Source of the DNA: Mobula hypostoma
Lineage: Eukaryota
Length of the DNA: 64,000 nucleotides
Direction of reading: 5' to 3'
Assembly (NCBI RefSeq): GCF_963921235.1
Contig: NC_086107.1
Coordinates: forward strand, 96,412,001-96,476,000
The notes beneath the pieces were generated by a model that did not search any database, had not been told where the DNA came from, and saw only the letters and a program-made list of their open reading frames with translations. Positions 12,676 through 48,830 of the stretch are shown here, piece by piece. A program made the translations under genes and the position numbers. Each line of letters opens with the position of its first letter. Position 1 is the first letter of the stretch.

Positions 12676-13703
12676 TATAATGGTTTATCACCTTTCATTT
12701 TTGCATTGGCTAAGTGTTAAACATGCTGTACTTCTGTGTCTTCCAATAGGCCCTCCCTTATCTCAAGAACTTGCCTCACCTTGGTATAATACAGTAAATC
12801 CCCGGGTTAAGAATATCCAACTTACAGACAACTCGTACTTACGGACTGCCATAAAGCCTATTATATTAAAAATTTGAGTTACATACAATGGTTCGTAACA
12901 ATGAACGCACGCACTACTTTGTGACGCTCATGAAAACATTGCGCGGCTTCAGCGGTTTGTCTGCTCGCGGAAGGAGAACGCTGTCTGCCATTTTAAATTG
13001 GATCACGTTGCTGTTAACAATGTTGAGTGTGTAATTTTGTATTTGGCATAAATTTTTCTCTTATTTACCCTCGTAACCATGCCTTCAAAACATAAATCCG
13101 ATGCAAGTGCTGGTGATGCATCAAAGAAAAGGAAAACGATCACGATTGAAAATAAAGTGGAAATAATAAAGCGATCAGAAAGAGGTGGAACGCCATCGGT
13201 CATTGGAAAAGCATTAAGCTACAGTCGGAACAATTTTAAAGGCCATGCCCCGATGAAAGCTACAATTATTACTAAGCAACGCAGTGGTTTAATTATTGAA
13301 ATGGAAAGGCTATTGATAATTTGGTTAGATGATCAAAATCAGCGTAATATGCTTATTTAGCCTTACTTTAGTGCAAGAAAAGGATCAAAGCCTTTTCAAT
13401 GATTTAAAAGCTGCACGTGCAGCAAGTGAAGATGATTGTGATGAAGAATTTGTTGCTAGTAGGGGTTGGTTCAATCGTTTCAAAGTGAGGGCAAATTCAC
13501 ATAATATTAAAGTGCAAGGTGAAGCAGCGAGTGCTCATGTAAGTGCTGCGAGTGATTTTCCTGAAATGTTTCAAATAAATTATTAAGGGGGGAGGTGATT
13601 TGCCAGACCAAATATTTAATTTTCACGAGACTGGCTTATTTTGGAAAAAAATGCCTGAAAGGTCCTATAATTTGAAAGAGGAAAAAGGTGCACGAGGGCA
13701 TAA

Positions 13704-14199
13704 CATCTGTCAGACAATGCTGAGGATGTTCTACAAGTCTGTGGTGGCCAGTGCGATCATGTTTGCTGTTGTGTGCTGGGACAGCAGGCTGAGGGTAGCA
13801 GACACCAACAGAATCAACAAACTCATTCGTAAGGCCAGTGATGTTGTGGGGATGGAACTGGACTCTCTGACGGCGCTGTCTGAAAAGAGGATGCTGTCCA
13901 AGTCGCATGCCATCTTGGACAATGTCTCCCATCCACTACATAATGGACTGGTTGGGCACAGGAGTACATTCAGCCAGAGACTCATTCCACCGAGATGCAA
14001 CACTGAGCGTCATAGGAAGTCTTTCTGCTTCTGGCCATCAAACTTTACAACTCCTCCCTTGGAGAGTCAGACACCCTGAGCCAATAGGCTGGTCCTGGAC
14101 TTAGTTCCTGGCGTAATTTACATATTACTATTTAATTATTTATGGTGCAACTGTAACAAAAACCAACTTCCCTCGGGATCAATAAAGTATGACTATGAC
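13704..14199 (+). mobile_element. Rex1/Babar LINE 3' fragment inserted in Tigger
   Basis: NICQTMLRMFYKSVVASAIMFAVVCW...RINKLIRKASDVVG with tail AATAAAGTATGACTATGAC; CATAA is duplicated at the junctions. Confidence 0.8.
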
Positions 14200-14328
14200 C
14201 ATAAGGCATCAAAGGATAGGCTAACGTTATTGCTTGGGGGTAACTCATCTGGGGATTTCAAGCTCAAGCCTTTGCTTGAGAATCGCTCCCTAAATCTGAG
14301 GGCACTTTGCCGTATCATTAAGGCATCA

Positions 14329-14707
14329 GCAGCGAGCACTTTTGTGCAGACAGGACAGCGTGACCAGCCTCCCACGACCAGGAGAGCAGTGCAAGTTGAG
14401 CCAGCCTCTGAGACCGACCTGGGAGCCGGCAGCCTTGACGGAGGCAGTGTGCCAGTGACGTAGGCGCCCATAAGTACGGCCCAACTCCCAGATGATTGGT
14501 GGATCACTAGCAGCTTTACATAGCCTCTGACAAGTTGCACACATGACGGACCAGGTAGGCAACAGCTGTCCAGCACACCCACCCATCCCAGACAACCTAG
14601 GGGAGAGCTGCCAGCGGGCCAGGGCAGCAAGGTCTTTGCCAGGCCTCCTGCTTCAATCTAAACACCAGAGGCTAGGCAGGATGTAGCCGACTCAAGCGTA
14701 TGCCTGC
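14329..14707 (+). mobile_element. Probable 5' UTR and ORF1 start of a Tx1-group element (possibly the head of the third Tx1 copy)
   Basis: Not Tigger sequence. CTTCAATCTAAACACC...AGGATG (14651-14683) resembles CTCCAATCTAACACC...AAGATG, which precedes ORF1 in Tx1 copies 1 and 2. Confidence 0.4.
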
Positions 14708-14759
14708 ATCGCTTCTCGGCCTTTTGGCTAAGATCAAGTGTAGTATCTGTTCTTATCAG
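14708..14759 (+). ncRNA. RNU2: U2 snRNA 5' fragment (nt 1-52), orphan and truncated
   Basis: ATCGCTTCTCGGCCTTTTGGCTAAGATCAAGTGTAGTATCTGTTCTTATCAG matches the conserved vertebrate U2 5' end and includes the branch-point recognition GTAGTA (14740-14745). No U2 3' part was seen in the window. Confidence 0.96.
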
Positions 14760-14864
14760 ACCAGAAGGCGGAGGTGAAGAGTTTGCGCTGACGCAGGGGT
14801 GGATCCTAATGCTGATTGGCCTCCAATCTAACACCCCATACCAGCGACGACAGCAGTGAGGAAG

Positions 14865-16286
14865 ATGGCAGCAGCGAGCAGTGCTCGAGGCCAAGGTATC
14901 AAGAACACTGTCAGGCTGACAGTGCGAGACCGGAACGGGGGCACCGGCTTCACCCGAGAGACCTTCATCCAGAAGGTGTTGATGGAATGCTGCGGATTTA
15001 CGCCTGACGACATCTACTGCGTCCAGGACTTCGCAGATTTTTTCGACGTGACTTTCCGGCAGGCTGCAGGGTGGCAGAAGCTGTACCAGCAGCTTCAGCT
15101 GAAGGGGACAGAGGCGCCGCTGTCGCTGTTGAAAGCACAGGCCCTCTTTGCCACGGCTACCCAGCAGGAACGGACAATCACGGTGCACATGTTCAACCCG
15201 CACGTGCCAGTGGTAGATGTCCTTACATTCCTCGCTCGGTATGTGGAGAGCGTAGGAACGCCAGCAGACGTGAAGGACGGACTGGGAATCTGGACCAGCA
15301 AACGGCAGGTCAAGGTGAAGCTGAGGTTGGACTCCAACGGCGGCGTCATCCACCCCCCCTCCGTCTTCGCCATCGGAGGGAACCGAGGGTACACGGTGTA
15401 CGCGGGGCAACCCAGGGTGTGCCGAAACTGCGGCAAGGCAGGGCACATCGCAGCCCAGTGCAGGGTGGTGATGTGCAAGAACTGCAAAACTGAAGGCCAC
15501 CTGACCAAAGACTGCACGCAGGCCAAGTCCTGCAACCTTTGTGGACAAGACGGCCACCTGTACAGAGCCTGCCCGAGGCGTGGGGGCACCTACGCACAGG
15601 CAACCAGGGGAGGTGCTGGTCCTGAAAGGGCCCAGGCAGTTTCGGACGCCCCTGCCAGCACTGCCGAAGAGGCACCCGACAGGGCGGACGATGAGACCAG
15701 GGAGGAAGGGGCAAGCACCCCGAGACCTGCCACCCCACTGCAGACCCTCCAGGACCAAGCAAACGACGAGCAGGAGTCCATGGAGGAGGGGACAGCTGAG
15801 GTGGAAACGGAATGGAAGGTCGTGAAACGGAAAAAGACCCAAAAGGCGGCGGCCAAGCGACAGAAGGCGGAGCAACGCAAGAAAAGGGCAGGGAACCACA
15901 CAGCCTCTGGTACCCTGTCCTCTTCAGAGGAGGAAGGAGTTGGGGGAGGCCAGCAGCCCCAGCGGAAGAAGCGGCTGGCAGAACAGGTGGAGAGGAGGAG
16001 AGAGGAGGGGGAAAGTCTGCTGGCCACCCCCCAAGTACAGGAGGCGGAGAGCAGCAGACACACCGAGCTCCGGGAATCCGGGAGCAGAGCCACGGTTGGC
16101 ACCCAGCAGCCGGAAGCGGAAGCAGCCCAGGAAGCCAACAACCCCCCGGGCCCAGAACCAGAACGGCCACACACGGAGGAGTACTACCAGCAGTACCTGA
16201 GCCCACAGGAGGTGGAAAACTTCACAAAGGCGGTGGGAATGAAGGCTCAGGATGGCAAGGATGAGGACGGAGTGCAGCCAAAATAA
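14865..16286 (+). CDS. Tx1 ORF1p, gag-like nucleic-acid-binding protein with three CCHC zinc knuckles (intact frame)
   Basis: CRNCGKAGHIAAQC, CKNCKTEGHLTKDC and CNLCGQDGHLYRAC; basic WKVVKRKK stretch; low-complexity C-terminus. Confidence 0.9.
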   Translation: MAAASSARGQGIKNTVRLTVRDRNGGTGFTRETFIQKVLMECCGFTPDDIYCVQDFADFFDVTFRQAAGWQKLYQQLQLKGTEAPLSLLKAQALFATATQQERTITVHMFNPHVPVVDVLTFLARYVESVGTPADVKDGLGIWTSKRQVKVKLRLDSNGGVIHPPSVFAIGGNRGYTVYAGQPRVCRNCGKAGHIAAQCRVVMCKNCKTEGHLTKDCTQAKSCNLCGQDGHLYRACPRRGGTYAQATRGGAGPERAQAVSDAPASTAEEAPDRADDETREEGASTPRPATPLQTLQDQANDEQESMEEGTAEVETEWKVVKRKKTQKAAAKRQKAEQRKKRAGNHTASGTLSSSEEEGVGGGQQPQRKKRLAEQVERRREEGESLLATPQVQEAESSRHTELRESGSRATVGTQQPEAEAAQEANNPPGPEPERPHTEEYYQQYLSPQEVENFTKAVGMKAQDGKDEDGVQPK

Positions 16287-16296
16287 AAGACCTACA

Positions 16297-19200
16297 ATGA
16301 TGGCAGACCTTAAATTGGCGTGCTTGAATGTGCGAAGTTTGAAGAGTACTGGGCGATGCGTCAGCACGCTCCAGTACCTGGACACTGTAAAGACCGACGT
16401 GACCTTCCTCCAGGAGTGCGGACTACCACATCTCCGTAACTACCGGAGATGGTCACGGTGGTGGAAAAAAGGTTTGTCTGTGTGGTCGGGGGGCAACGAT
16501 TGTTGCGCTTCCGGCCTGGGGATTCTGCTACGGGGAGGTAACTTCTCAATCACCCAAGTTAAAGAGGTGGTTGCGGGGCGCCTCCTGGTAGCAGACGTCA
16601 AATACCGGGGCACTCCGCTCCGGCTGATCAACGTGTACGCCTCCCCGGTTCGGAGCGAGCGGCTGGCCGTCTTCGAGCAGCTCCCACAGCTGCTGGTGAC
16701 GTCCCAGCCGGTCGTTCTGGCCGGAGACTTCAACTGCACCATTGATGCGGCTGGAGGACCCGGCAGCGCCGACGGCAGGCTGGACAGTACCTCCAGACTC
16801 CTGAGGGAAATAGTAAAGACGGCCAAGCTGCGCGACGCCTTTGGCACCCCCACAGGTGGAGCACGGCCGCAAGCCACCTGGACACGATCGGACGGCTCAG
16901 CCCGCTCCCGGATCGACTTCCTCTTCCTGTCAGAGCCCCTCACGGTCAGGTCCACCGACGTCACGCCGGTGTTCTTCTCTGACCACTGCCTTCTGAGAGC
17001 CACCTGTCTTTTACGGGAGGACCAGAAGGCAGGCAGGGGGACGTGGAAGCTGAATGTTCAGCTGCTGACCCCAGAGAACATCGAGGAACTAGAGAGGGAG
17101 TACACAGGTTGGAGAACCTTGAAAGCCTTCTTTGATTCCCCGGTTCACTGGTGGGAAGCCACCAAAGAGAACATTAAGAGGTTCTTCATCCGCAAGGGTA
17201 TCCAGAAGGCAAGGCAGGAGCAGAGGGAACTGCGTAAACTCCAGACAGAGTTGCAGCAACTTCTCCTTCTGCAGTCGAAGGGGGTGGATGTCAGGGAGGA
17301 ATTGCGAGAGGTGAAGGGCCGGCAAGCCCATAACCTCGCCGCCGAATCCTCCAAGATCATCTTCCGATCAAGGGTCCAAACCGTGGAGCAGGACGAGACG
17401 TGCTCACGCTTCTTCTTCCAAAAGGTGCACAGGGGGAGCTCTGTGATCCACAACCTTAAGGAAGAGGACGGCTCAGTCGCGTCCTCGCAGACCGACATAC
17501 TGAGGATCTGCAAGTCCTTCTATGCCGGTCTGTACGACGAAAAGGCCACAGAATCCACAGCCTCCCGCAACTTCCTGTCGTCTATCACGCAGGTCTTAGA
17601 CGGCGGCAAGCGGGAGAGTCTGGATCAGCCACTGACCCTGGACGAGCTGACAGGCTCCATCCGTTCCTTTGGGTCGGGTAAGACTCCCGGAAGCGACGGC
17701 TTACCGGCTGAGTTGTACTCGGCTCTGTGGAACTGGATAGGCCCAGACCTGCTGGAAGTGTACAATGCTATGCTTCTGGCCGGCAGTATGTCTGAGTCCA
17801 TGAGGAAGGGCATCATCACCCTCATCTACAAGCAGAAGGGGGAAAGAGAGGACATTAGAAATTGGAGACCCATCTCTCTCCTGAATGTGGACTACAAGAT
17901 CCTGTCCAAGGCTATCGCCAACAGGGTCAAGTCTGCTCTGGGACAGGTGATCCACCCAGACCAAACCTGTGCTGTACCAGGCAGGAAGATCTCAGACAGC
18001 CTCGCGCTGCTGAGGGACACCATCGCCTACGTGCAGGACAGGAGGGTGGACGCCTGCCTGGTCAGCTTGGACCAGGAGAAAGCCTTCGACAGGATATCGC
18101 ACACGTACATGGCGGACGTGCTCTCCAAAATGGGATTTGGGGAGGGAATCCGGAATTGGATCAGACTGCTCTACACAGACATCCGTAGTGCAGTCCAGGT
18201 CAACGGGTGGGAAACAGACAGCTTCCCCATCAGGTCTGGAGTCAGGCAGGGCTGTCCCCTCTCCCGTCTTGTTTGTCTGCTGCATAGAACCCTTTGCGGA
18301 AGCCATTAGGAGGGATGAGGGCATAAGAGGGGTGACGCTGCCAGGCAGTGGAGGGACCCAAGTGAAAACCTCCCTGTGCATGGACGACGTCACCGTCTTC
18401 TGCTCTGATCCGAGGTCAGTTCGCAGGTTGATTGGCACCTGCGAACAGTTCGAGCTAGCGTCGGGGGCCAGGGTCAACCGCACGAAGAGCGAAGCCATGC
18501 TCTTCGGCAACTGGCCCGACCGATCCAGCGTCCCCTTCAACATCAGGTCTGACCACGTGAAGGTGTTGGGGATATGGTTCGGAGGGACGGAGGCGTGCAA
18601 CAAGAACTGGCAGGAGCGGACTGCCAAGGTGAAACAGAAACTGGGACTGTGGGGAGGGCGCTCCCTGTCGATAACGGGCAAGAACCTGGTCATCAGGTGT
18701 GAGGTGCTCTCAGGGCTGCTGTACTTGGCGCAGGTCTGGCCCGTCCCCCGCTCCTACAGCTCGGAAATCACCCGGGCTGTCTTCAGATTCGTCTGGGGAT
18801 CCAAGATGGAGCGGGTGGGACGGACCGCCATGCACAAGTCCCTGGACAACGGGGGCAAGAACGTCCCCAATGTCGCCCTCACCCTGATGGCCAGTTTCGT
18901 ATGTGGCTGCATCAGGTTGTGTGTAGAGCCCAGGTATGTGGGCACCAAGTACCGCTACGTGCCCAGGTTCTACTTGTCGCCCTGGCTACGAAGGATGGGT
19001 CTGGCCCCACTCCCGCGCAACACCCCAGTCAGCTGGTCGCTGCCGGCATACCTGTCCTACGTAGCAAAGTTCTTCCAGGAGAACGCCTTTGACCACAGGG
19101 CCATCAGGCAGTGGTCGGCACGTAGTGTCCTGCAGGCACTGCACGAGAAGGACGTGATGGACACAGTGGGGTGGTTCCCTGAGCAGACTGTCCAGTTCAT

Positions 19201-19708
19201 CTGGCAAAATGCCTCATCGCCAGATCTAACCAACAGGCACCAAGACCTCGCCTGGCTGGCGGTGAGAGGGGCCCTCCCAGTCAGAGCCCTCCTGTACGCC
19301 CGGAACGTCGTCTCCGCACCCCACTGCCCACGGGAGGACTGCAGTGAGGAGGAGTCTGTGACCCACCTCTATGCACACTGCCAGTTCGCAAAGAGGGTGT
19401 GGAGGAGGATGGACGGGCTAGTGTCACGGTTTATCCCCAGCAGCTGCGTAACAGAGGACTCTCTGATCTACGGGCTGTTCCCGGGGACACACACGGTTAC
19501 CAACGTCCGGTGCTGCTGGCAGATCATCAACTCGGTGAAAGATTCTATTTGGTCGGCCCGAAACTTGATGATCTACCAGCACATGGAGATGTCCGTGGGA
19601 GAATGCTGCCGACTGGCACATTCTCGACTGCAGGAGTACGTGCTGAGGGACGCACTGAAACTCGGTGCAGCCACCGCAAGGGCCCGGTGGGGAAGGACCA
19701 CAGTATAG
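16297..19708 (+). pseudogene. Tx1 ORF2 (APE endonuclease, RT, C-terminal Cys/His domain) with one 2-bp frameshift at ~18265 and YMDD changed to CMDD
   Basis: ORFs 16252-18309 and 18137-19708: LNVRSL, FLQEC, LAGDFN, SRIDF, FSDH, LDQEKAFDR, GVRQGCPLS, CMDD, CPREDC..EESVTHLYAHC. Confidence 0.92.
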
Positions 19709-19944
19709 GTTTCTCCACCCGTGGGAGTGGGAGGGGTCGGAGGGCGGGGAGTATACCCCTCAACAATGAAATGATATGGTAAGCTGAACTACTGGAGTGC
19801 CACGTGGGTGGCTATAAATACGGATATGTACTGTGTATAATGCAAACGTATGTAAAGGATGAAAAGTTATTGAATGGTTTATTGTATATATTTATTTTTG
19901 AATAAAGTATATTTTGAAATTAAAAAAAAATCTGTTCTTATCAG

Positions 19945-25160: not shown

Positions 25161-28100
25161 TCTCTTCCCATTAGGGGTCGCAGGAGAGAACAGTTACGGT
25201 ACACATGCTTAATCCCTATGTACCGGTCGTCGACGTTCTCACTTTTCTAGCACGTTATGTGGAGAGAGTGTGGAGGTGTGAGGACGTTGACGAAATTCTG
25301 GAGGTTTGGACATCTAATCGGCTGGTCAGGGTTAAGTTAAGGACGGACACCAATGGCTGTGTCATCCACCCACCCTCCGTCTTTGCGATAGGAGGGAACC
25401 GGGGCTACCTGGTTTACGCCGGACAACCGAAACTGCGCCGAAACTGCGGCAAGGCAGGGCACATCACGGCCCAGTGTAAGGCTGTGGTGTGCAGAAATTG
25501 CAAGGTGGAGGGACACCTTACCAAAGACTGCATGGAGGCCAAATCCTGCAACCTCTATGGGCAGGCGGGCCACCTTTATAGGACCTGTCCGAAACGGGTG
25601 GGCTCCTATGCACAGGTGGCCAGGGGTAGTGATGACATCGGGATAGCCCCAGCTGGAGTGGAGGTGCCCGCCGTCTCTGTAGAGGAGATGTAGGTTGCGA
25701 TGGAGGGACAAGAGCCCAGCCTGGGCTCCCCCTCCACCTTGCAGGACACCCAATACCCCCCGCTTGATGAGGGTTCAATGGAAGAGGGGAGGGCCGAGGG
25801 GGAAGAGGAAAAGTGGAGGGTGGTCACAAAACGAAAAAAGACCCTAAAGATGCCGCCAAAAAGACAAAGGGCGGAGAAATTGGAGAGCTCTAAAAAGAGA
25901 GAGGTTGAGCATCACTCGTCCTCTGAGCACCTGTCTTCCTCGGAGGAGGGCGGTGGGGGTGGCCAGAAACCCCGACAGAGGAAGAGGCGGGTTAATCGGG
26001 CAGAGGAGAGTCAGGGGAAGAGTGAAGGTCTGCTAGCCACCCCCCAGTCGCAGGATGGGGGGATCAGCAGAGTCTCTCAGCTCCGGGAATCCGGGAGCAG
26101 TCATACTTCTGGTGGTCTGCAGCCAGATGGAGGGGCGCCCCTGGAGGTTCCATTTGGTGCCGAACCAGTGGCGCCCCTCCCTGGCAGGGAGTACCAGCAG
26201 TACCTGAACCCTCAGCAGGTGGAAGACTTCACCAGGACTGTGGGGATGAGGCCTCCAGACGGGAAAGAAGAGAACGAGGATTTATAAAAGGTGATGGACC
26301 TTAAACTGGCATCTTTAAACCTTCGCAGTGTGAAGAGTACTGGGCGTTGCGTCAGCACGCTTCGGTACTTGAACACTGTGAACGCCAACGTGACCTTCCT
26401 GCAGGAGTGCGGTCTGCCGCACCTCAGGAGTTATCGACGGTGGTGGTCCCAGGGTTTGTCGGTGTGGTCGGGGGGCAACGATGGTCACGCTTCCGGCCTG
26501 GGGATTCTGCTGCGGGGAGGCAACTTCTCAATCACCCAAGTTAAAGAGGTGGTTGCGGGGCGCCTCCTGGTAGCAGACGTCAAATACCGGGACACACCAC
26601 TCCGGCTGATCAACGTGTACGCCTCCCCCGTTCGGAGCGAGCGGCTGGCCATCTTCGAGCAGCTCCCAAAGCTGCTGGTGACGTCCCAGCCGGTCATTCT
26701 GGCCGGAGACTTCAACTGCACCATTGATGCGGCTGGACGACCCAGCAGCACCGACGGCAGGCTGGACAGTACCTACAGACTCCTGATGGAAACTGTAAAG
26801 GCAGCCAAGCTGCGCAACGCCTGTGGCACCCCCACAGGAGGAGCACAGCCGCAAGCCACCTGGACACGATCGGACGGCTCAGCCCGCTCCTGGATCGACT
26901 TCCTCTTCCTGTCAGAGTCCCTCACGGTCAGGTCCACCGACATCACGCCGGTGTTCTTCTCTGACCACTGCCTTCTGAGAGCCACCTGTCGTTTACGGGA
27001 GGACCAGCAGGCAGGCAGGGGGACGTGGAAGCTGAATGTTAAGTTGCTGACCCCAGAGAACATCGAGGAACTAGAGAAGGAGTACACAGGTTGGAGAACC
27101 TTGAAAACCTTCTTTGATTCCCCGGTTCACTGGTGGGAAGCTACCAAGGAGAACATTAGGAGGTTCTTCATTCGCAAAGGTATCCAGAAAGCAAGGCAGG
27201 AGCAGAGGGAACTGCGTAAACTCCAGACAGAGTTGCAGCAACTTCTCCTACTGCAGTCGAAGGGGGTGGATGTCAGGGAGGAACTGCGAGAGGTGAAGGG
27301 CCGGCAAGCCCAGCACCTCGCCGCCGAATCCTCCAAGATCATCTTCCGATCAAGGGTCCAAACCGTGGAGCAGGACGAGACGTGCTCACGCTTCTTCTTC
27401 CAAAAGGTGCACAGGGGGAGCTCTGTGATCCACAACCTTCAGGAAGAGGACGGCTCAGTCGCATCCTCGCAGACCGACATACTGCGGATCTGCAAGTCCT
27501 TCTATGCCGGTCTGTACGACGAAAAGGCTACAGAATCCACAGCCTCCCGCAACTTCCTGTCGTCTATCACGCAGGTCTTAGACGACAGCAAGCGGGAGAG
27601 TCTGGATCAGCCACTGACCCTGGACGAGCTGACAGGCTCCATCCGTTCCTTTGGGTCGAGTAAGACTCCCAGAAGCGATGGCTTACCGGCTGAGTTGTAA
27701 TCGGCTCTGTGGAACTGGATGGGCCCAGACCTGCTGGAAGTGTACAACGCTATGCTTCTGGCGGGTAGCATGTCTGAGTCCATGAGCAAGGGCATCATCA
27801 CCCTCACCTACAAGCAGAAGGGGGAAAGGGAGGACATTAGGAATTGGAGACCCATCTCTCTCCTGAATGCGGATTACAAGATCCTGTCCAAGGCTATCGC
27901 CAACAGGGTCAGGTCAGCTCTGGGACAGGTGATTCATCCAGACCAAACCTGTGCTGTACTGGGCAGGAAAATCTCAGACAACCTCACGCTGCTGAGGGAC
28001 ACCATTGCCTACGTGCAGGACAGGAGGGTGGACGCCTGCCTGGTCAGCTTGGACCAGGAGAAAGCCTTCGACAGGATATCGCACACGTACATGGCGGACG

Positions 28101-29962
28101 TGCTCTCCAAAATGGGATTTGGGGAGGGAATCCGGAATTGGATCAGACTGCTCTACACAGACATCCGTAGTGCAGTGCAGGTCAACGGGTGGGAAACCGA
28201 CTGCTTCCCCATCAGGTCTGGAGTCAGGCAGGGCTGTCCTCTCTCCCGTCTTGTTTGTGTGCTGCATAGAACCCTTTGCGGAAGCCATCAGGAGGGATGG
28301 GGGCATAAGAGGGGTGACGCTGCCAGGCAGTGGAGGGACCCAAGTGAAAACCTCCCTGTACATGGACGACGTCACCGTCTTCTGCTCTGATCCGCGGTCA
28401 GTTCACAGGTTGATTGGCACCTGCGAACAGTTCGAGCTTGCGTCGGGGGCCAGTCTCAACCGCACGATGAGCGAAGCCATGCTCTTCGGCAACTGGCCAG
28501 ACCGATCCAGCGTCCCCTTCACCATCAGGTCTGACCACACGAAGGTGTTGGGGATCTGGTTCGGAGGGGCTGAGGCGTGCAACAAGAACTGGCAGGAGCG
28601 GACTGCCAAGGTGAAACAGAAACTGGGACTGTGGGGAGGGCGCTCCCTGTCGATAACAGGCAAGAACCTGGTCATCAGGTGTGAGATGCTCTCAGAGCTG
28701 CTGTACTTGGCGCAGGTCTGGCCCGTCCCCCGCTCCTACAGCTCGGAAATCACCCGGGCTGTCTTCAGATTCGTCTGGGGATCCAAGATGGAGCGGGTGA
28801 GACGGACCGCCATGCACAAGTCCCTGGACAATGGGGGCAAGAACGTCCCCAATGTCGCCCTCACCCTGATGGCCAGCTTCGTGTGTGGCTGCATCAGGTT
28901 GTGCATGGATCCCAGATACGTGGGCACAAAGTACTACTATGTGCCTAGGTTTTACCTGTCGCCCTGGCTACGAAGGATGGGTCTGGCTTCTTTCCCGCGC
29001 AACACCCCTGTCAGCTGGTCGTTGCCCCCTTACCTGTCCTTCGTAGAAAAATTCTTCAAGACCAACACATTTGACCACAGGGCCATTAGACAGTGGTCGG
29101 CACGTAACGTCCTGCAGGCACTGCAGGAGAAGGACGTGATGGACACAGTGGGGTGGTTCCCTGAGCAGACTGTCCAGTTCATCTGGCAAAATGCCTCATC
29201 GCCAGATCTCAGCAACAGGCACAAAGACCTAGCCTGGCTGGCGGTGAGAGGGGCCCTCCCAGTCAGATCCCTCCTGTACGCCCGGAACAGTTCCTCCACA
29301 CCCCGTTGCCCACGGAAGGACTGTAATGGGGTGGACTCGGTGGCTCACCTCTTTGCACACTGTGGGTTCGCAAAGAAGGTGTGGAAGGCACAGTACTAAG
29401 ATTCATGCCCAGCAGCTGCGTAACAGAGGACTCTCTGATCTATGGGCTGTTCCCGGGGACGCACACGGAGACAAACATCCGGTCCTGCTGCCAGATCATC
29501 AATTCGGTGAAAGACGCTCTTTGGTCAGCCCGAAACTTGATGGTCTGCCAGCAGATGGAGATGTCCGTGATTCAATGCTGCAGACTGGCTCACTCTCGTC
29601 TGCAGGAGTCCGTGCTGAGGGATGCACTCAAACTTGGTGCGGCCACCACGAAGGCCCAGTGGGGAAGGACCACAGTTTAACGTTCATCACCCGTAGGAGG
29701 GGGAGAGGTTGGGTGGGGAGGAGACCTACCCTCATCAGCGGTGTGGACAGATAATCAACATGGTGCCCAAGGAGTGGGTGGAATTGTTAATTTGGGAAAG
29801 TATTAGAGCCATTGCCTGCCTTTATTGTTGATAATTTGATTGTTAATAAGTTTTAACTCTTGACCAAGGGTTGAGAGTAAACGCATGATTTATTGTAAAC
29901 ATCTTTCATTTGTAAATGAACAGAGTCAACGCAAAATTTTTATTGTTAATAACTGTATTGAA

Positions 29963-30809
29963 ACCTCCGGTTAAACCGAAAGCTACGGATTTCCCCCCGA
30001 CTGAATCACCGGTGACTTTGAAAGCGATATCGGAGTTAATTCAGAGGGAAATTTCAACCTCTGTTAGGGAGATGATTCGTACGGAAATTGCAGGCTCTGT
30101 TAAAGACCTGATTCATACGGAAATCTCAACTAATTTCCAGAAAATTGCCGATTCAATGGATAAGATGCAAACATTTATTGCGGAACATCAGTCGGCTATA
30201 TCTGATCTTCAAAAATTCGTGCAACAAAGTGAGCTTAAGATGGGGAAAATCGAAGAAACAATTAATGTAATGAAGAAGAAACTTGACTTTTTGACTTTTA
30301 AAAACTCTGACTTGGAATCTAGAATGCGACGGCAGAATTTACGAATGATCGGGGCGAGGGAAGCTGTTGAATCCAACAACCCCATGAAATATTTTTCTCA
30401 ACTTTTAAAAGATGCATTCCCTACTGTATTTCCTGACCAACCACCGCTTCTGGATCGTGTTCACAGAATCCCATCATACTCGTCTAGGTCAGATAGACCT
30501 AGGCATGTTATTTTACGTTTTCATTATTTTCAAGACAAGGAGAGACTGTTTCGATTCGCTCGATCTAAAGGTTTCATTGATTTTTCGGATCTTAAGTTCC
30601 GATTCGTGGAAGATTTCAGTAAACCAATCTGGGACCAACAGGTTCGTTACAGATCCGTGATGTCGGAATTCTATAAGATGGATTTAAGACCAGCGCTGCT
30701 GTACCCTGCACGTCTAAGGATTCGCATGTCAGATGGAGCCCTTCGTTTTTTTGATTCTCCATCGGATGCCCAGAGTTATATGGATCAACTTTCATCTTCA
30801 ACATCTTAA
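29963..30809 (+). CDS. L1 ORF1p (coiled coil, RRM, CTD), N-terminus truncated at the insertion point
   Basis: DLESRMRRQNLRMIG, LDRVHRI, PRHVILRF, RFVEDFS and LLYPARLRI are typical L1 ORF1p motifs. Confidence 0.85.
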
Positions 30810-31527
30810 TTGCCTTTTTTTAATTATCTCCGTTGGATCGGAGGCTGTGAATTGGTTGGTTTTAACTTTTTCGTGCCCTATCTGGGCAGAAAAGTTTATT
30901 TTTGATTTCTTAATATGGTTGCTAAACTTTCTTTTTAACTGCGTCATTTCTTTCTTTTCCCAGGGGATTCTGGGTGGTTACTTCCCTTTTGTCATCTTAC
31001 GTATTTCCTGTGTGGCCTTAAATTTTGTAGTTTTTTTTAAATTTTATTCTGTTTTGCTTTTTATAACCACTTTATGTCCATAATCCTATTTTTTCTTGTT
31101 GCTGTGTCTATTCATGGGTTTGAGGTTTATTGTGGTTTTTTTTAATATATATTTTCCGGCTTTTGTTCTGTTCTGTGTGTATTTTAATTGAGCTAACTTT
31201 TTTTTTTACTTACTTTTTTACTGTTTTACAATTAGCTGATCCTTTTCATATTTATACCTTTTTTTTTTAGGGAGCGTATACCGGAAGTCATGGGGGTAGT
31301 TTTAGCGCTTGCTTCTCTCTGGCGGGTCTGCTTTAGATTTTGCCTTGGGGTCTTGGGGCGGTGGGAGGGGCTTCACGTTTTAGTTTGTTTCTCTTTGGGC
31401 TATATACATTATTGAAGTACTGGTTGCGTCCTTTTTCCCGGTATCTTTTGTATGTTCTGTTTCCTCTCCGGGTTTGTGGGTCGCGCCTATCGTCAATCCT
31501 CCTTGTTGTGGGTTGACTTTAGGATTT

Positions 31528-34500
31528 ATGGAGTCTATTATTAATTTTGTCTCCTGGAATACTAATGGTCTTAATCATCCTATTAAAAGGAAAAAAGTTT
31601 TTAAAGTGTTCCGGAGACTTAAAGCACAAATTTTATTTTTACAAGAGACCCATGTACGGAGGGGGGACAGACTACGTTTTTTCAAATTCTGGAAGGGACA
31701 ACAATTTCATTTGAACTCCAATGCTAAGATTCGAGGTGTCTCTATTTTTATAGATTCCTCAGTTACTTTTATACAACAGGATATTATCTCTGATCCGAAT
31801 GGTGGATTTTTATTGGTTAGTGGTTTACTATTTAATAAAAAAGTAGTTTTGGTTAATGTTTATGCTCCTAATATGGATTGTCCGGAATTTTATAAATCAT
31901 TGTTTGATCAGTTTCCGAATTTGAACGAGTTTTCATTGATCTGGGGCGGAGATCTTAATACCTGTTTGTCTCCAGCTTTGGACCGTTCGGCTCCTTTACG
32001 GACTTTACCTAATAAATCTGCAAATCTGATTAATTTTTTCCTTTCTGATTCTGGGTCGACGGACATTTGGCGTTTTCTGCATCCTCAGGAAAAAGATTTT
32101 TCCTTCTTTTCACATGTTCATCATTCCTATTCAAGAATTGATTATTTTTTCATTGATTCTCGTCTTATTCCTTCAGTGATTAAATGTGATTATGATTCTA
32201 TAACCATTTCGGATCATGCTCCACTTAAGCTTTCTATTAAAATTATGGCCAATATACCAAATAATAGACAATGGTGTTTTAATTCGCTGTTGCTTCAGGA
32301 CTCGGACTTTGTTAATTTTATGAATGAACAGATTGAGCTTTTTTTTACAATTAACCATACAGAAGATATTTCGGTTAACACTCTTTGGGACACTTTTAAA
32401 GCCTATATTCGGGGTCAGATTATTTCGTATTCTGTTGCTTTGAGGAAGAAACAGAAGCAGGAGGAGATGGCAATTGTGGACAAGATTAAAGAAATTGATA
32501 AGAAATATGTTATGGCTCCTTCTGAGGAGTTATACAAACAAAGAACTGAACTTCAAATGGAACACAGTTTACTACTCTCGTCCTCGATTGTAAACCAATT
32601 AAAGAAAACAAGAAGTGACTTTTATGTTCACAGTGACAAAATTGGCAAGCTGCTGGCTAATCAATTGAAATCTAATTATGTTAAATCTCAAATCAATCAG
32701 ATTTATAACCAAAATGATCGATTGATATTGGATCATGTGGGGATTAATCAAACCTTTTGTGATTTTTATTCTTCTTTATATCAATCAGAGTCTCCTCGAG
32801 ATTCTAAATATATGAATGATTTTTTAGATAAGTTAGACTTCCCTCAGATTTCACAGGATATGTCTTCTTTATTAGATACTTCCATTACAATGGATGAGAT
32901 TAAGAATGTTATTTTTTCTATGAATCTGGGGAAAGCTCCTGGCCCTGATGGGTTTACCGTTGAATTTTATAAATGTTTTGCTTCTTTATTGATTCCTTGG
33001 CTCTGTAAGGTTTTTGAGGCTTCTTTGAAACTTGGTAAACTTCCTGAATCTTTTAATAGAGCATCAATTTCTCTAATACTAAAGAAGGATAAAGACCCTG
33101 CTCAATGTGCATCTTATAGACCAATATCTTTATTAAATGTTGATTCTAAAGTTTTTTCTAAGTTATTAGCAAATAGACAAGAAAAAGTACTTCCTTCTAT
33201 TATTTCGGAAGACCAAACGGGTTTTATTAAAGGTCGTTACTCTTTTTATAATATTCGTACATTGTTAAATATCGTTTATACTCCCTCACAAAATGTTCCT
33301 GAGTGTGTTATTTCTTTAGATGCCGAGAAAGCTTTTGATAGAGTAGAATGGCCTTATTTATTTAAGGTGCTTGAAATGTTTAACTTTAGCTTGAAATTTA
33401 TATCCTGGATTAAACTGTTATATCACTCCCCTGTAGCCTCGGTTCGTACTAACTCTTTAAACTCACCTTTTTTTCCTCTCTTTCATGGTACTCGACAAGG
33501 CTGTCCTCTTAGTCCCCTATTATTTGATATTGCATTAGAACCTCTTGCAATTGCTATTCGAGAATCTTCAAATATTACTGGGATAACTCGGGGATTAAAG
33601 TCCCATAAATTATCACTCTATGCTGATGATTTACTTTTATATATTTCTAATCCTGAGAGATCCATTCCTGCTGTTTTAGAGTTATTAGCACAATTTGGTC
33701 TTTTCTCAGGTTATAAATTAAATCTTAGTAAGAGTGAACTTTTTCCGATTAATAAACATCTTCCCTTATATTATAAATTTCCATTTAAATTGATTAATAA
33801 TTACTTTTCATATCTTGGGATTAAAATTACTTGTAAATACAAAGATTTATTTAAGACTAACTTTTTACCATTAATAGACCATATTACTCAACTTTCATCT
33901 AAATGGTTTCCCTTATATTTAACTTTGATTGGTCGTATTAATGCAGTTAAGATGTTTTTTTTGCCAAAATTTTTATATGTGTTTCAGGCATTACCAATTT
34001 TCGTTCCCAAATCTTTTTTTGATAAAGTTGACTCTAAAATTTCTTCATTTATTTGGCAGAATAAGAATCCGAGACTGGGTAAAATACATTTACAGAAAGC
34101 TAAGAGAGATGGAGGTTTAGCACTACCTAACTTTAGATTCTATTATTGGGCTATTAATATTCGACATATGAAATTTTGGTTACTTGACCAGGACATACTA
34201 CCTATTCCTAAATGGGTAGCATTGGAATTACAATCTGTTCAGGGTTATACACTTGGTTCTATTTTAGGCTCCTCTCTCCCTTTTGATTCGAATCGTCTTA
34301 AGCAGGTCTCTAACCCGATAGTTAAATATGCTTTGCGCATTTGGTTTCAATTCAGAAAATTTTTTGATCTTAATCAATTCGGGTTAGCGATTCCTATTTT
34401 AGGTAATATATTTTTTCCTCCCTCTTTTACGGATCGCGCTTTTCAAACTTGGAAGACTAAGGGTATTTTACGGTTTTTGGATTTATTTTTAGATGGTTCC

Positions 34501-35304
34501 CTTATGTCTTTTGAACAATTATCTAATAAATATAACTTATCAAGAATACATTTTTTTAGATATTTACAAGTTAGAAATTTCCTAAGTACTATACTTTCTT
34601 CCTTTCCAATGCTTCCTCCTACATATATTTTAGATTCGATAATTAACCTTAATCCATGTCAGAAAGGTGCATCGGCTATGATTTATAATATTATTATGAA
34701 ACTTAGGAAAGCTTCATTTGATAAGATTAGGGTAGATTGGGAACAGGAATTGGGGCTTACCATTTCTGTGGATGATTGGGGGCGGATTTTACAATTAGTT
34801 AATACTTCCTCTATTTGTGCTAAACATTCCCTAATTCAATTTAAAGTGGTTCATAGAGCACATATGTCCAAAGATAAGTTAGCGCGTTTTTACTCGCATA
34901 TTAATCCTTTCTGTGATAGATGTTCGGGGCAGATAGCCTCTTTAACTCATATGATTTGGTCTTGTCCTACTTTGGAAACTTTTTGGAGAGATATTTTCAA
35001 TATTATTTCTAAGGTATTAAATATAGATATCTCTCCTCACCCTATTACTGCTATCTTTGGACTACCTAAAATTTCTAGTAATCTTTCCCCTTCAGCCCGT
35101 AGAATGATTGCATTTCTTACTTTAATGGCGAAAAGATGTATTTTACAACATTGGAAAGAGCTTAATGCTCCAACTACCTTTTTTTGGTTTTCTCAGACGA
35201 TTTTATGTTTGAATTTGGAGAAAATTAGAAGTAACCTTTATGATTCTTCATTTAAATTTGAACAGATTTGGGGACCTTTTATTCGATATTTTCATTTAAT
35301 GTAA
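31528..35304 (+). CDS. L1 ORF2p (APE endonuclease, reverse transcriptase, CCHC), uninterrupted
   Basis: SWNTNGLN, FLQETH, GGDLN, SRIDYF, SDH, LDAEKAFDRV, GTRQGCPLSP, LYADD, CDRC..ASLTHMIWSC. The ATG was chosen just before the EN start within the 1276-codon frame. Confidence 0.93.
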   Translation: MESIINFVSWNTNGLNHPIKRKKVFKVFRRLKAQILFLQETHVRRGDRLRFFKFWKGQQFHLNSNAKIRGVSIFIDSSVTFIQQDIISDPNGGFLLVSGLLFNKKVVLVNVYAPNMDCPEFYKSLFDQFPNLNEFSLIWGGDLNTCLSPALDRSAPLRTLPNKSANLINFFLSDSGSTDIWRFLHPQEKDFSFFSHVHHSYSRIDYFFIDSRLIPSVIKCDYDSITISDHAPLKLSIKIMANIPNNRQWCFNSLLLQDSDFVNFMNEQIELFFTINHTEDISVNTLWDTFKAYIRGQIISYSVALRKKQKQEEMAIVDKIKEIDKKYVMAPSEELYKQRTELQMEHSLLLSSSIVNQLKKTRSDFYVHSDKIGKLLANQLKSNYVKSQINQIYNQNDRLILDHVGINQTFCDFYSSLYQSESPRDSKYMNDFLDKLDFPQISQDMSSLLDTSITMDEIKNVIFSMNLGKAPGPDGFTVEFYKCFASLLIPWLCKVFEASLKLGKLPESFNRASISLILKKDKDPAQCASYRPISLLNVDSKVFSKLLANRQEKVLPSIISEDQTGFIKGRYSFYNIRTLLNIVYTPSQNVPECVISLDAEKAFDRVEWPYLFKVLEMFNFSLKFISWIKLLYHSPVASVRTNSLNSPFFPLFHGTRQGCPLSPLLFDIALEPLAIAIRESSNITGITRGLKSHKLSLYADDLLLYISNPERSIPAVLELLAQFGLFSGYKLNLSKSELFPINKHLPLYYKFPFKLINNYFSYLGIKITCKYKDLFKTNFLPLIDHITQLSSKWFPLYLTLIGRINAVKMFFLPKFLYVFQALPIFVPKSFFDKVDSKISSFIWQNKNPRLGKIHLQKAKRDGGLALPNFRFYYWAINIRHMKFWLLDQDILPIPKWVALELQSVQGYTLGSILGSSLPFDSNRLKQVSNPIVKYALRIWFQFRKFFDLNQFGLAIPILGNIFFPPSFTDRAFQTWKTKGILRFLDLFLDGSLMSFEQLSNKYNLSRIHFFRYLQVRNFLSTILSSFPMLPPTYILDSIINLNPCQKGASAMIYNIIMKLRKASFDKIRVDWEQELGLTISVDDWGRILQLVNTSSICAKHSLIQFKVVHRAHMSKDKLARFYSHINPFCDRCSGQIASLTHMIWSCPTLETFWRDIFNIISKVLNIDISPHPITAIFGLPKISSNLSPSARRMIAFLTLMAKRCILQHWKELNAPTTFFWFSQTILCLNLEKIRSNLYDSSFKFEQIWGPFIRYFHLM

Positions 35305-38300
35305 TATTTACCCTTCTTGTTTTTTTTTCACTGTTTTTAATGGAGGTCGGGATTGAGGACGTGATTTTAAGTTTAACTCTGTTTGGTTTCAAGTTAGCCC
35401 ATTGCTTTGCTTTGCTTTTAGTTAGCTGCACGGTGGGTTTTTTTTTGGGGGGTTTTTTTTCTTTTTTTTCCATTGATATATATAAAATTTAGTATACTAT
35501 TATGTTATCTTGGTTTCTTATGCTTAAATTACATTGTAGTATTTTCTTTTTGGTATTGATATCTTTTGGAATTTTATTATACTTTAACATTGTATTAATG
35601 TTTATATGGCTTACCTTTTTTGTATACTTACAAAAAAAAACTGTATTGAATAAGGTCTCACAGTCAATGAATGGTTTTCTTTTATGTAATTATTTTTATT
35701 TTGTAATATTTCTGAATAAAGTATTTTTGGAAAAAAAAATCTCTTCCCGTTATTTGGAAGGTAAATGCAAAGGCTTAGGTTACAATTGCCATCTTTGAAG
35801 ATTGGTTCTTGAACCATTTTGTCCTCGCTGTTGAACGTTATTGCTTGGCCAAGAAAATTCCTTTCAAGATTCTCCCTGTGCTTCACAACACCCCCCCCCC
35901 CAATATAAAGGTTATATCTTTACCCACCAACACCACATCGCTACTTCAGTCAATGGATCAGGGAGTCATAGCCTCCTTTAAGGCCTATTATTTACGGCAA
36001 TCTTTCTCACAAGCAGTCAGGGCTACCCAAGATGATGTGATGAGCTTTAAGGGAGTTCTGGAGGAATTATAACATCTATGATGCCATCAAGAATATTGCT
36101 GATTCTTGGGATGAAGTGAAGAGGTCAAATATGAAAGGAATGTGGAACAAATTGTGCCCCCAATTCACACATGCTTTTCAGGGGTTTACAGCTGACGGCA
36201 ATCGCTGAAGCCAGGCAAGCTGTGGCTGATATTGGTAATCAACTGCAGTTGGACATCAGTGAAAATGATGTTGTAGAGTTACTCGACTCCCATGCCGAAG
36301 AACTGACCAATGAAGACCTTATGGAACTACAGCAGCAGATGATAGCATTTGAGGAAGAAGACTGGGACCTAAAAACTCCAGAACTGAAAAAGTTTTTGAT
36401 GAAAGAGTTAGCTGAAGCCTTTCGTCTCACTGAAGCAGGGATGGCAAAGTTAGAGGAGCAAGATCCTAATACAGAGAGGTTCAAAGTTTACCGTACAGTT
36501 ACCGAGGGCCTCAGCTGCTACAAGGCCATTTATGACGAGAAAAAGAAAAGCTCTGTACAAACGTCCCCTTGATGCCTACTTCAAAAAATTGACTCTAGTA
36601 AACTCCCCCTCTCCAGCAGCAGAATCAAACCCTGATTCTCCAGCACCAGGTCCATCCTCTCCAACACCAAGCCCATCATCTTCAACAACAGCCATCATTC
36701 CATCATCTTCTCCTGCATCATCCAATTATTAATGTTATCATAATGTTACCTCACAAATGCCCCTTCTGGTATGCAAGACATCGATGGAACGAGAGTTAGT
36801 GTTAGCCTTTAATCATAATCTCTTTTCTCTATCTAAACTGTTTTAAGAACTGTTCCTTTAATGTTTTTTACAGTACTGTATACCTACACACATATAGATT
36901 CTCTCTTCAGTACAGTATGTAGTTAATTTTATTATTACTGTATTATGTTTATGTTTTAGTGTATTTGGAAGTGTTTAAGTGTTTTATATGCATAGAAAGG
37001 TAAAATATATACTATATACAAGACAAACATTTGACTAACTGATGCTAAGAACCGTATGTACCTGTTTCGACTTACCTATAAATTCAACTTAAAGACAGAC
37101 TTAGGAACAGATCTCATTCGTAACCCAGGGACTGCTTGTGGTGTCTGTTTCTGCAAAAATCGCCATCTTAGTTTCTGATCATCCCCCTATCAGTAGAACT
37201 ATTGCCACATGCTTTGTGCTTGCTTCTTTGTTCTAAACTTTCAATAAACAATTGCAAAGCGACAAATTTTCGATTCATACTCCGACTCTGGGAAAAAAAA
37301 ACACCTGTGGATCAGAAATCACCAGATCCAACAAAGTCATGGTGAGAGAGCTGCCAGAAAAGGCAGATTTGCTCCCAGATGGATAGAACCACAGGAGGTA
37401 CTTTTGATAAATGATAAGTGTTTGTGTGCAGAGCCAACGAGGTAGCCAGTGGAAACTCTGGACTTGGGTGAAACGGTATGACTCACCTCCTTGTCACCCT
37501 CACAGACAGAGCAAGCAATCAACTGTACCCAGTAAGTGTCATTGCAGAGAACCTAAGTGACGAACACCAGCCAGTTGCATCAGACCTCACCACAGCCGAA
37601 GAAATCAGACCCAAAACAAACCCAAATGCAAAAGACACAGAGCGCGTAACAGCAAACCATGAACAGTGTGTTAAAGTACAACTGTAACTGTACTCTGCAA
37701 TGAAGGGTGTTTCTTGCAGGTAGGTTTCTGAAAGGTAGATGATCAGTTGTACAGATCAGAATATAAAAATATCGCGGAAAAAACAGATGAGAAGGGACCT
37801 GAGTTACATCATGTTCCATAGCTTCGATGGCAAGGCAGACTGAGAAGGAAGAAATTACACACAGCGCCTGAAGGCAGTGACCCCAGCCTGAATTGGGGAG
37901 TGAATACAAATGAGCTGGCCCTTCCAGTGTTTGGGTCAGTGACCAAATGGACAGCCCAGCAGTGTGTGCCCATGGGCTAAGGTCCTTGCAACCGTTCAAA
38001 TGCAGACCACCCAACCCTTCCTGTACACTGATGGAAGGGTCTGAGACACCAGTTGTCACAATCTGACCATTTTTTTTGTCATGGCAGAGAGTGTGAACTG
38101 GTGCCTGTGAGCCTGATACAATTACCTTGCTGGTACCCCCAACGAGACAGTAACCAGATGCTGCTGAGTTTCAGCTGTCAGTGAATGAAGAGGTGAAGGT
38201 AAGAACATGATTAAACTGCAATCAGCCAGTAGGGAAGAAGGTATATGAATGACAAAGCTGCTTTTAAAGACTGTTGGTCAAATTCCCAGAACGATCTCTG

Positions 38301-42190: not shown

Positions 42191-43066
42191 GGCTACATCC
42201 ACACTAGACCGGATAATTTTGAAAACGCCGGTTTCGCGTAAAAGCCACAGGCGTCCACAGTAGGAGTTTTAAAAAATACCTCTGTCTACATTAAAACGGA
42301 TATTTGGGTGCATCTCCTCCTACTGGGCATGCACAGGACACACAGAAAACAAGCGAAGAGGAAACAGTATACTTGTTGTGCGTTTGTCCAGTTACAGACT
42401 AGAAAAACTTAAAAGGAAATTGCCAAACAAAAATCTTGGTGCGCGTTTGTCCAGAAACATTTCCTACAGCCATAGTCTCTTCACCGATGAAAGGGACAAC
42501 AGCTTCAACTAAATGTAATAAGGCTTGCTACTGGGCAAAAGTGAAATTTGCTGTTACCTCATTTGTTTACCTTTACTTTTGCCATGTCTTTGTGTATTAT
42601 TTTGCTGTATTTAACATGTGCAATAAAAGGAGTTACTGGGCAAAAGTGACAATTGCATCTATTGAATGTTTGCACAAACAATACATTAATAAAGCACCTT
42701 GTTAAATGTATAAAACATGTCTGCATCAGTGTTATCTTGTATTTCCATACAATGTTACATTAGGCTGTTACACATCCATTGTCAGATGTTGTTGTGGTGT
42801 TGGAGGTTGCGTTCAAGAAAACAATGAAATGCTGCGCTGCCGCCACCATTTGTTGCAGCACGCCATGACAGCGGTTTTAAAATAGCTGGTTACCCTGTAC
42901 ACACTAGGCCGGATATTAGGCGTTTTCAGATTTATTCACTCTGGAGAGCGTTTCTGAAAATCTCCCTGTTCAGGGGAGGAAAATGCCGTTTCCGTGTCGA
43001 CAGAAGGTCAAAACGAAGAGAAAAAGCTTTGGTTACGGATTTATCCAGTCTAGTGTGGACGCAGCC
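42191..43066. mobile_element. Non-autonomous PIF/Harbinger-like DNA transposon
   Basis: TIRs GGCTACATCCACACTAGACCGGATAA / TTATCCAGTCTAGTGTGGACGCAGCC followed by TTAA. Absent from the paralogous positions at ~50130 and ~53670. Confidence 0.78.
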
Positions 43067-43402
43067 TTAATTGCTTTGAGCAAAATGCCAGCTAAGTTTT
43101 GCAACAGAACCAACAGCTCTGCAGTGCAGCGAAGCTCCAACCAGACTACCAAATGCTCACCTTCCTCGTTCCCTTCCAAGCCCCACGTTGCATGCACTGT
43201 TCCCTCACAGCCATCCTCACCCACAGCCCCAGGCCTTCCAGCCTGTTAGAGTGAGTTTTTTTGGGTAGATGATTTGTTTACACTTAAATGACTTTGGCCA
43301 CCAGACTTCTATTTGACAAAGTACTGTGGATTGAGTCCACAACAATGCGCTTCCTAAAAAGGTGTGAATACCAGATGCTTCTGGCACCATACTTTCACCT
43401 GA

Positions 43403-44795: not shown

Positions 44796-45261
44796 GTATT
44801 CAGCCTTCAGCTGGAGAAGCAGGCAAACACACCCATTGCTACTTTTTACCAATATGGAGACTGGGAAAGTCTTTCCTCTTTCCCAAGGCTTCACCTATCC
44901 AATATTGAGAATTTAGTAATTTCCTGCCTTCATGTTAAATACAAGCTAAAGAGATACCAGCTCTGCAGGACACAAAAACTGCAAACAAGACCACGCAATT
45001 CTTGCCCTCCTCCTTTCCTATGATGAACTCTCTGGACTAAAGTCAGTGTCTGAAAGAATCTTTGCAAAGGTGTGACCCTCCAACAAGGCAAGGGAGACCT
45101 TAGAGGACCTAAACACACTGTCCAGAGAAAATCATCACAATCCCATGCAGATGTAATCTCAATACAGAACAACAGAATCTATACCTCTGGTCCTTACCCT
45201 TGGGTAAGAGTTTTAGTTTTGATGGGGACAGGAAGGTAGGGAGTGCGTTCAGATTGACAAA

Positions 45262-48667: not shown

Positions 48668-48830
48668 ACCATAAGACAATAGGAGCAGAATTAAGCCATC
48701 TGGCCCATCAAGTCTGCTCCACCATTCAATCATGGATGATCCTTTTTTCAATCTCCTTCTCAACTCCAGTTCCTGGCCTTCTCCCCGTAATCTTCAATGC
48801 CATGTGCAATCAAGAACCTATCAATCTCTG
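48668..48830 (-). mobile_element. Short CR1 3' tail fragment
   Basis: Reverse-complement similarity to the CR1 3' UTR at 46930-47080. Confidence 0.7.

What the first reader, a model, noticed from the sequence alone, without database searches (positions are those of the whole stretch)
25161..35752. All three Tx1 poly(A) tails abut the same U2-like motif, suggesting relaxed target specificity
Seen: after the poly(A) of copy 1, TCTGTTCTTATCAG (U2); after copy 2, TCTCTTCCCATTAG (25161; 10/14 identical to U2); after copy 3, TCTCTTCCCGTTAT (35740; Tigger coding sequence, 8/14). Consensus TCTSTTCYYRTYA. The 12/13 match between 25161-25173 and 35740-35752 may be the TSD of copy 3, re-cut by copy 2. 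Inference: the endonuclease recognises a degenerate U2-like site that happens to occur in Tigger, making it a repeated insertion hotspot for two subfamilies.
Basis: partly seen in the sequence, partly recalled or inferred. Interest (0 to 1): 0.7.

Follow-up and report, generated by a model that had tools for sequence, protein, structure and literature searches.

The report
Keno LINEs re-hitting one U2-like site
Three copies of a jumping gene known for landing in U2 spliceosomal RNA genes are stacked in a dead DNA transposon of a ray; one hit a true U2 fragment and two share a single look-alike site, an ordinary case of a site-specific element with loosened aim.

Summary
The letters and counts are right, but the three junctions are only two independent targets. 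Copy 1 sits in a real U2 fragment (nt 1-52) with a 14-bp duplication, which is on-target Keno behaviour. Positions 25161-25173 and 35740-35752 are the two halves of one 13-bp duplication at a single site in a Tigger/pogo transposase gene. That site is more U2-like than chance (8 of 10 bases around the cut; p about 0.003 after correcting for window choice; n=1) and was apparently cut twice. The 'two subfamilies' share a 93-98% identical EN-core/RT, so this is one enzyme. Decay suggests the order copy 3, copy 2, copy 1. A family-wide Tigger hotspot is not supported: in public contigs the LINE 3' UTR outweighs this Tigger 130- to 1,600-fold. Three other visible tail junctions, from a related organism, do not begin TCTNTTC. 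The genome-wide logo could not be run. Loosened U2 targeting (Utopia) and Keno relatives entering Mariner transposons (Tx1-Mar) are published. The scan noted this stack before on this window, and a Keno-in-U2 cluster about 380 kb away. Verdict: real, mostly expected.

The parts
12792..14325 (+). Left part of a decayed pogo/Tigger-type DNA transposon; ends at the codon boundary IIKA|
13704..14199 (+). Unrelated LINE-like 3' fragment inside the Tigger, with a 5-bp CATAA duplication
   Evidence: family not tested
14326..14327 (+). Only 2 bases (TC) of the target repeated at the left end of the whole stack
14328..14707 (+). 380-bp, 59% G+C stretch of unknown origin (5'-transduced flank or second template)
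   Evidence: no hit to the Tx1 ORF1 proteins tried, no repeat over 17 bp in the window, no octamer
14708..14759 (+). U2 snRNA nt 1-52; 14746-14759 is the left copy of the 14-bp duplication
   Evidence: Rfam RF00004 66.8 bits, the only U2 match in the window
14760..19930 (+). Copy 1: full-length Keno-type Tx1 LINE; ORF1 14865-16286 intact, ORF2 from 16300 with one frameshift near 18265; least decayed
   Evidence: Pfam calls
19931..19944 (+). U2 nt 39-52: copy 1's on-target 3' flank and copy 2's 5' junction
   Evidence: 14/14 to U2; equals the start of the Keno target quoted in PMC6136364
19945..25160 (+). Copy 2: full-length, 97.7% identical to copy 1 over aligned bases, with stops in ORF2
25161..25173 (+). 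Left half of copy 3's 13-bp target duplication, and copy 2's 3' flank
   Evidence: 12/13 to 35740-35752, unique in the window; not native ORF1 in frame; a sibling contig starts to match at 25173 (table 8, record 18)
25174..29962 (+). Copy 3: 5'-truncated within ORF1; mosaic (own ORF1 and 3' UTR, shared EN-core/RT); most decayed
   Evidence: 89.5% aa to P0003; sliding identity; decay counts
29963..35638 (+). 5'-truncated L1 nested in copy 3's 3' UTR; 12-bp duplication 29951-29962 / 35639-35650; ORF2 open for 1258 aa
35651..35739 (+). Rest of copy 3's 3' UTR and poly(A)
35740..37136 (+). Right part of the Tigger, starting SLPVIW; 35740-35752 is the right half of the duplication
   Evidence: Pfam DDE_1 positions 53-145, E=5e-12; 2,430 bp in all without inserts

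Best explanation
One Keno-type endonuclease/reverse transcriptase built the stack by successive target-primed insertions. (1) Copy 3 nicked a site in the Tigger gene that resembles the U2 target in the ten bases around the cut, and left a 13-bp duplication (structure shown; choice by sequence inferred). (2) The left half of the duplication regenerated the whole site, upstream bases included. It was cut again at the same bond by copy 2, whose template came from a U2 locus and carried U2 nt 1-52 plus 380 bp in front (same bond shown; order and donor inferred). (3) That head is a perfect target, and copy 1 inserted into it with a 14-bp duplication, here or already at the donor (on-target shown; timing inferred). 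An L1 entered copy 3's 3' UTR separately. Specificity is loosened, but the Tigger is an incidental target.
For: Site U2-like at p about 0.003 corrected. Both off-target tails end at the same bond. Duplication lengths of 13 and 14 agree. EN-core/RT is 93-98% identical across all copies and the TWTRSDGSARS loop is the same in copies 1 and 3. Decay ladder: CpG decayed 1/103, 7/108, 16/118 and private non-silent codons 9, 17, 38 of 777 for copies 1, 2, 3 (copy 1 vs 3 p=0.0003). Copy 2's 5' end also abuts U2 nt 39-52. The 3' UTR depth is 132-1,626 times the Tigger's in 3 runs, which suggests far more copies than a small gene family could hold singly. Precedent for weakened U2 targeting with TCTGTTCTT-like junctions in crocodilian Utopia (PMC4640811 section 8).
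Against: One off-target site only. The second event left just 2 duplicated bases, not 13-14. Neighbouring steps of the age ladder are not significant (p=0.07, 0.12), and copy 3's counts include lineage differences. The reverse order (copy 2 first) gives the same final structure. Three tail-to-sibling junctions in organism B score 1, 1 and 2 of 7 in register, at best 4-5 of 7 when shifted. They are 3 of 12 rows shown with 91 hidden, and contigs like human DNA (U2) are filtered out. Depth is not a copy number by the tool's own note.
Confidence: 0.58

Rival explanations
1. Only a broad Tx1-type taste for pyrimidine runs (TC/TTC), or chance, placed copy 3. Copy 2 landed there because this family piles up at siblings' 5' junctions, not because the U2 motif was read again.
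For: The site begins with nine pyrimidines, and related Tx1 groups target (TC)n, (TTC)n and (TTCC)n (PMC4494074). Three tail-to-truncated-sibling joints without the motif appear in organism B. The second event has only a 2-bp duplication. 11 other ATCTNTTC words lie in the window besides the 4 at these junctions.
Against: The match keeps U2's register and includes G at -3 and A at -1. Copy 2 ends exactly at the first base of the duplication. My null allows for base composition but not for a pyrimidine preference, so this rival is not excluded.
Confidence: 0.28
2. The lineage has switched or added Tigger as a regular target, like crocodilian Tx1-Mar in Mariner-N4_AMi.
For: Two hits at one bond; precedent from the Keno cluster, including U2 heads.
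Against: Tigger depth is 16-23 in organism A against 7,100-30,200 for the LINE 3' UTR; no second Tigger in the window; Mariner-N4_AMi had 11,801 copies. Tiggers under 85% alike were not counted.
Confidence: 0.07
3. 25161-25174 is copy 3's own ORF1 sequence; copy 2 inserted into copy 3 and the match to 35740 is accidental.
For: The stretch contains CTCTTC, which aligns with the Leu-Phe codons at this point of ORF1 in copies 1/2, so microhomology may have set the truncation point.
Against: In frame it reads S-S-H-stop where the closest protein reads LFAE before GSQER. No 5' part of copy 3 lies upstream. The 12/13 match is unique. A sibling contig stops matching at 25173.
Confidence: 0.05

Closest known systems
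Keno (U2-specific Tx1-clade LINEs; Kojima and Fujiwara 2004, seen only as cited in PMC4640811, PMC4494074, PMC6136364)
   Same: APE endonuclease plus RT, zinc-knuckle ORF1; copy 1's 3' flank starts at U2 nt 39, matching the quoted target over the 14 bases present.
   Different: The stack lies outside a U2 gene (no U2 3' part in the window); two of three tails end on a U2-like site in a DNA transposon.
Tx1-Mar of crocodilians (PMC4494074; abstract, passages and second part of Results read)
   Same: Keno-cluster Tx1 elements in a Mariner-superfamily transposon; some carry U1 or U2 heads; sequential tandem insertions sandwiching a duplication are described there for SINEU-3.
   Different: There the transposon is abundant and a family-level target; here it appears rare and only one site is seen.
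Weakly specific Utopia families (PMC4640811; sections 7, 8, 11 and passages read)
   Same: Same U2 nt 39 target; off-target junctions keep short U2-like words such as TCTGTTCTT.
   Different: Utopia uses a restriction-like endonuclease and rarely leaves recognisable duplications off target; these copies have an APE endonuclease and 13-14 bp duplications.

Membership tests
Keno | Two-ORF LINE with apurinic-type endonuclease and RT, Tx1-type zinc-knuckle ORF1 | tested here: met
   Exo_endo_phos, RVT_1, zf-RVT, zf-CCHC and ZCCHC3-type domains in copies 1 and 3
Keno | 3' flank begins at U2 nt 39 (copy 1) | tested here: met
   14/14 at 19931
Keno | 3' flank begins at U2 nt 39 (copies 2 and 3) | tested here: not met
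   9/13 and 8/13; Tigger sequence. Copy 2's 5' junction is U2, so its source copy was on target
Keno | RT groups with KenoDr1/KenoFr1 in a tree | not tested
   no labelled Keno reference came or 35
Keno | U2 makes up a large share of flanks genome-wide (over 20% by the rule in PMC4494074) | not testable with these tools
   no genome held; U2-like contigs are filtered
Tx1-Mar | Preferential insertion into a Mariner-type transposon across the family | tested here: inconclusive
   depth ratio 132-1,626 argues against, but depth is no copy number and diverged Tiggers are missed
Tx1-Mar | snRNA-derived head at the 5' end (some families) | tested here: met
   U2 nt 1-52 before copies 1/2; whether the head is a fixed family trait is unknown
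Tx1-Mar | RT falls in the crocodilian Tx1-Mar group | not tested
   no references; supplement unreadable
pogo/Tigger DNA transposon (host) | DDE_1 transposase, terminal inverted repeats, about 2.4 kb | tested here: met
   DDE_1 continuous across the stack; 14/16 inverted match at the ends; 2,430 bp; expected size and subfamily name are recalled

The most novel reading that the evidence does not exclude
This ray Keno lineage is midway between strict U2 targeting and a short degenerate motif (G-N-A, cut, T-C-T-N-T-T-C). Most of its hundreds to thousands of copies would lie at such sites, and U2-headed transcripts would carry perfect targets to new loci and so seed their own landing pads. The genome would then hold a natural, graded map of what a Keno endonuclease reads.
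Probability: 0.3. Interest if true: 0.5.

Novelty: new member of a known kind. Interest (0 to 1): 0.27.

Why it matters
If the motif holds genome-wide, it gives the minimal recognition site of a Keno-type endonuclease and shows how a U2-specific LINE can drift to new targets, the step implied by Tx1-Mar. That bears on how site-specific LINEs survive on a low-copy target and on their use as insertion tools. From this window alone it is one off-target site hit twice, a pattern already described for related elements.

Tried and rejected
Genome-wide flank logo: not possible, no assembly held. Laying public contigs on 24750-36200 (4 of 16 runs listed) showed no loose-end row at 25160 or 35739 among the 24 shown, with 5,416 hidden, so no flank census. 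No joint from copy 2's tail straight into Tigger was among the 15 shown (572 hidden); that is not evidence of absence. Searches for relatives with flanks found nothing useful: viral contigs 0, metagenomes 1 distant locus at 27% of 187 candidates, prokaryote genomes 0 of 35 candidates. The 380-bp piece as copy 3's missing 5' end: rejected. The same piece as a U2 promoter: no octamer and PMC3544641 gave no usable PSE letters in text; left open. The 35739 tail as the L1's own: rejected. Scan-note searches by sequence or by the hotspot words gave nothing. PMC4275248 (passages) was irrelevant. PMC1950540 (passages) was used only for the role of the EN hairpin loop. Paper searches listed no paper on Keno in rays or on a degenerate Keno motif; Kojima and Fujiwara 2004 and Repbase were not available, and supplementary figures S3-S6 of PMC4494074, which may show Tx1-Mar target letters, could not be read.
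Full report
Setting. The window is animal DNA rich in repeats; the closest named proteins to ORF1 are from Mobula birostris and M. hypostoma (88-92% identity for the top two), so it is a ray. No whole genome is held. The finding lies in a 21.4-kb stack (14326-35739) that splits a decayed pogo/Tigger-type transposon. Pfam DDE_1 positions 1-32 lie left of the stack and 53-145 right of it, with the intervening residues IIKA and SLPVIW present, so no Tigger sequence was lost. Without inserts the element is 2,430 bp.

Anatomy. From left to right: 2 bases TC; 380 bp of unknown origin; U2 nt 1-52; copy 1 (14760-19930); U2 nt 39-52 again; copy 2 (19945-25160); 13 bases that repeat the Tigger's next 13; copy 3, 5'-truncated in ORF1 (from 25174); an L1 (29963-35638) with a 12-bp duplication; the last 89 bases of copy 3; Tigger. 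The L1-free join of copy 3's 3' UTR is present in 3 of the 4 runs laid, so the tail at 35739 is copy 3's.

The observation. The three flanks score 14, 10 and 8 of 14 against U2, as reported. They are not three samples. The first is real U2 and equals the start of the Keno target quoted in PMC6136364 (passages). The other two match each other at 12/13, and no other position of 127,976 does. They flank copy 3 as a target duplication should. The left half is not native ORF1: it reads S-S-H-stop in frame where the nearest relative P0003 (89.5% to copy 3) reads LFAE, and one sibling contig begins to match at 25173 (record 18). The 10/14 includes one base from the element and one likely CpG change; fair scores are 9/13 and 8/13.

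Is the one Tigger site U2-like? I scored the two Tigger halves against U2 over 121 windows around the cut, using 84,870 positions outside the stack as the null. Over +1 to +14, p=0.014; over +1 to +7, 6/7, p=0.002; over -3 to +7, 8/10, p=0.0004; corrected for window choice, p=0.003. So the resemblance is beyond chance for a random site and lies at the cut. It is one site, and the null does not allow for a general Tx1 liking for pyrimidine runs.

One enzyme. Copy 3 is 62-74% identical to copies 1/2 in ORF1, 92-98% from copy-1 position 16535 to 18880 (93-98% to copy 1), 78-88% in the ORF2 C-terminal part and about 49% in the 3' UTR. It is a recombinant that shares the EN core and RT, and the loop TWTRSDGSARS is the same in copies 1 and 3. 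PMC1950540 (passages) ties the corresponding hairpin to target choice in L1 and Tx1L; the correspondence is my inference. Two hits are therefore not two enzymes converging.

Order. In the shared core, CpG sites decayed in 1/103, 7/108 and 16/118, and private non-silent codons number 9, 17 and 38 of 777, for copies 1, 2 and 3. Copy 1 vs 3 is significant (p=0.0003); neighbouring steps are not (0.07, 0.12), and copy 3's numbers include lineage differences. The likeliest order is 3, 2, 1. Copy 3's duplication rebuilt the full site on the left, copy 2 cut it again, and copy 2's U2 head gave copy 1 a perfect target. Structure alone cannot exclude the reverse order, or arrival of copies 1 and 2 as one 10.8-kb unit. 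The 2-base duplication at 14326 is unexplained.

Beyond the window. laid 4 of the 16 runs listed (3 samples at most). Summed depth at three 3' UTR positions of copy 2 is 444-1,626, 378-1,321 and 132-926 times that at one Tigger position in X1, X3 and X6; X8 does not cover the Tigger. The tool warns that depth is no copy number, so I use it only as an order of magnitude. It suggests a large LINE family and a rare Tigger, which fits loosened specificity or heavy stacking and does not fit a Tigger hotspot. Against the motif: the three rows of table 5c that start at a copy-3-type tail (3 of 12 shown, 91 hidden; organism B only) lead into truncated siblings and score 1, 1 and 2 of 7 in register. 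Human-like contigs are filtered out, so true U2 flanks are probably under-seen.

What is known. Keno and Utopia share the U2 nt 39 site; crocodilian Utopia has off-target junctions with words such as TCTGTTCTT (PMC4640811; passages and sections 7, 8, 11). Crocodilian Tx1-Mar clusters with Keno, prefers a Mariner transposon and sometimes has U1 or U2 heads; sequential tandem insertions around a duplication are described for SINEU-3 (PMC4494074; abstract, passages, Results part 2). The element works like Keno and copy 1 meets the target test; membership by phylogeny was not tested. Searches listed no paper on rays or on a degenerate Keno motif, but the key 2004 paper, Repbase and one supplement were out of reach. 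Two unchecked scan notes bear on this: one reads the same stack as a U2-headed Keno pile-up, the other reports Keno copies in split U2 genes about 380 kb away, a possible donor that I could not test.

Verdict. Observation partly confirmed, interpretation partly supported. A real, twice-used U2-like off-target site of a Keno-type LINE; a new member of a known kind; interest 0.27.

Noticed in passing
window 25174-29962: Copy 3 is a mosaic: EN-core/RT 93-98% identical to copy 1 but ORF1 62-74% and an unrelated 3' UTR, pointing to module swapping between subfamilies.
   Followed up: partly
window 14328-14707: 380-bp G+C-rich stretch in front of the U2 head with no match found; it shares a short AATCTAA-CACC-like word with the LINE 5' UTR near 14826, possibly by chance.
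   Followed up: partly
window 29963-35638: Nested L1 has an uninterrupted 1258-aa ORF2 and a perfect 12-bp duplication, so it is young; about 70% identical to another L1 at 103-3321.
   Followed up: partly
window 13704-14199: A second, LINE-like insertion in the same Tigger with a 5-bp duplication, 130 bp from the main site.
   Followed up: no
window 63120-64000: A fourth, more distant Tx1-type ORF1 start (38-50% aa to P0003), split by a 500-bp insert with a 12-bp duplication (63230/63738); no U2 match upstream.
   Followed up: partly
window 21730-21830: Copy 2 has a 49-base internal duplication in the EN region that breaks the frame.
   Followed up: no
window 5360-5435: Long perfect-looking hairpin with a sub-threshold Rfam mir-3926 match; related sequence recurs near 62075-62207 and 63593-63739, so probably a repeat.
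   Followed up: no
window 39688-56940: A cluster of 65-88% similar repeated blocks of unknown nature.
   Followed up: no
run X6, table 5c: Copy-3-type tails joined to 5'-truncated siblings through 1-10 extra letters, suggesting that stacking is common in this family.
   Followed up: partly
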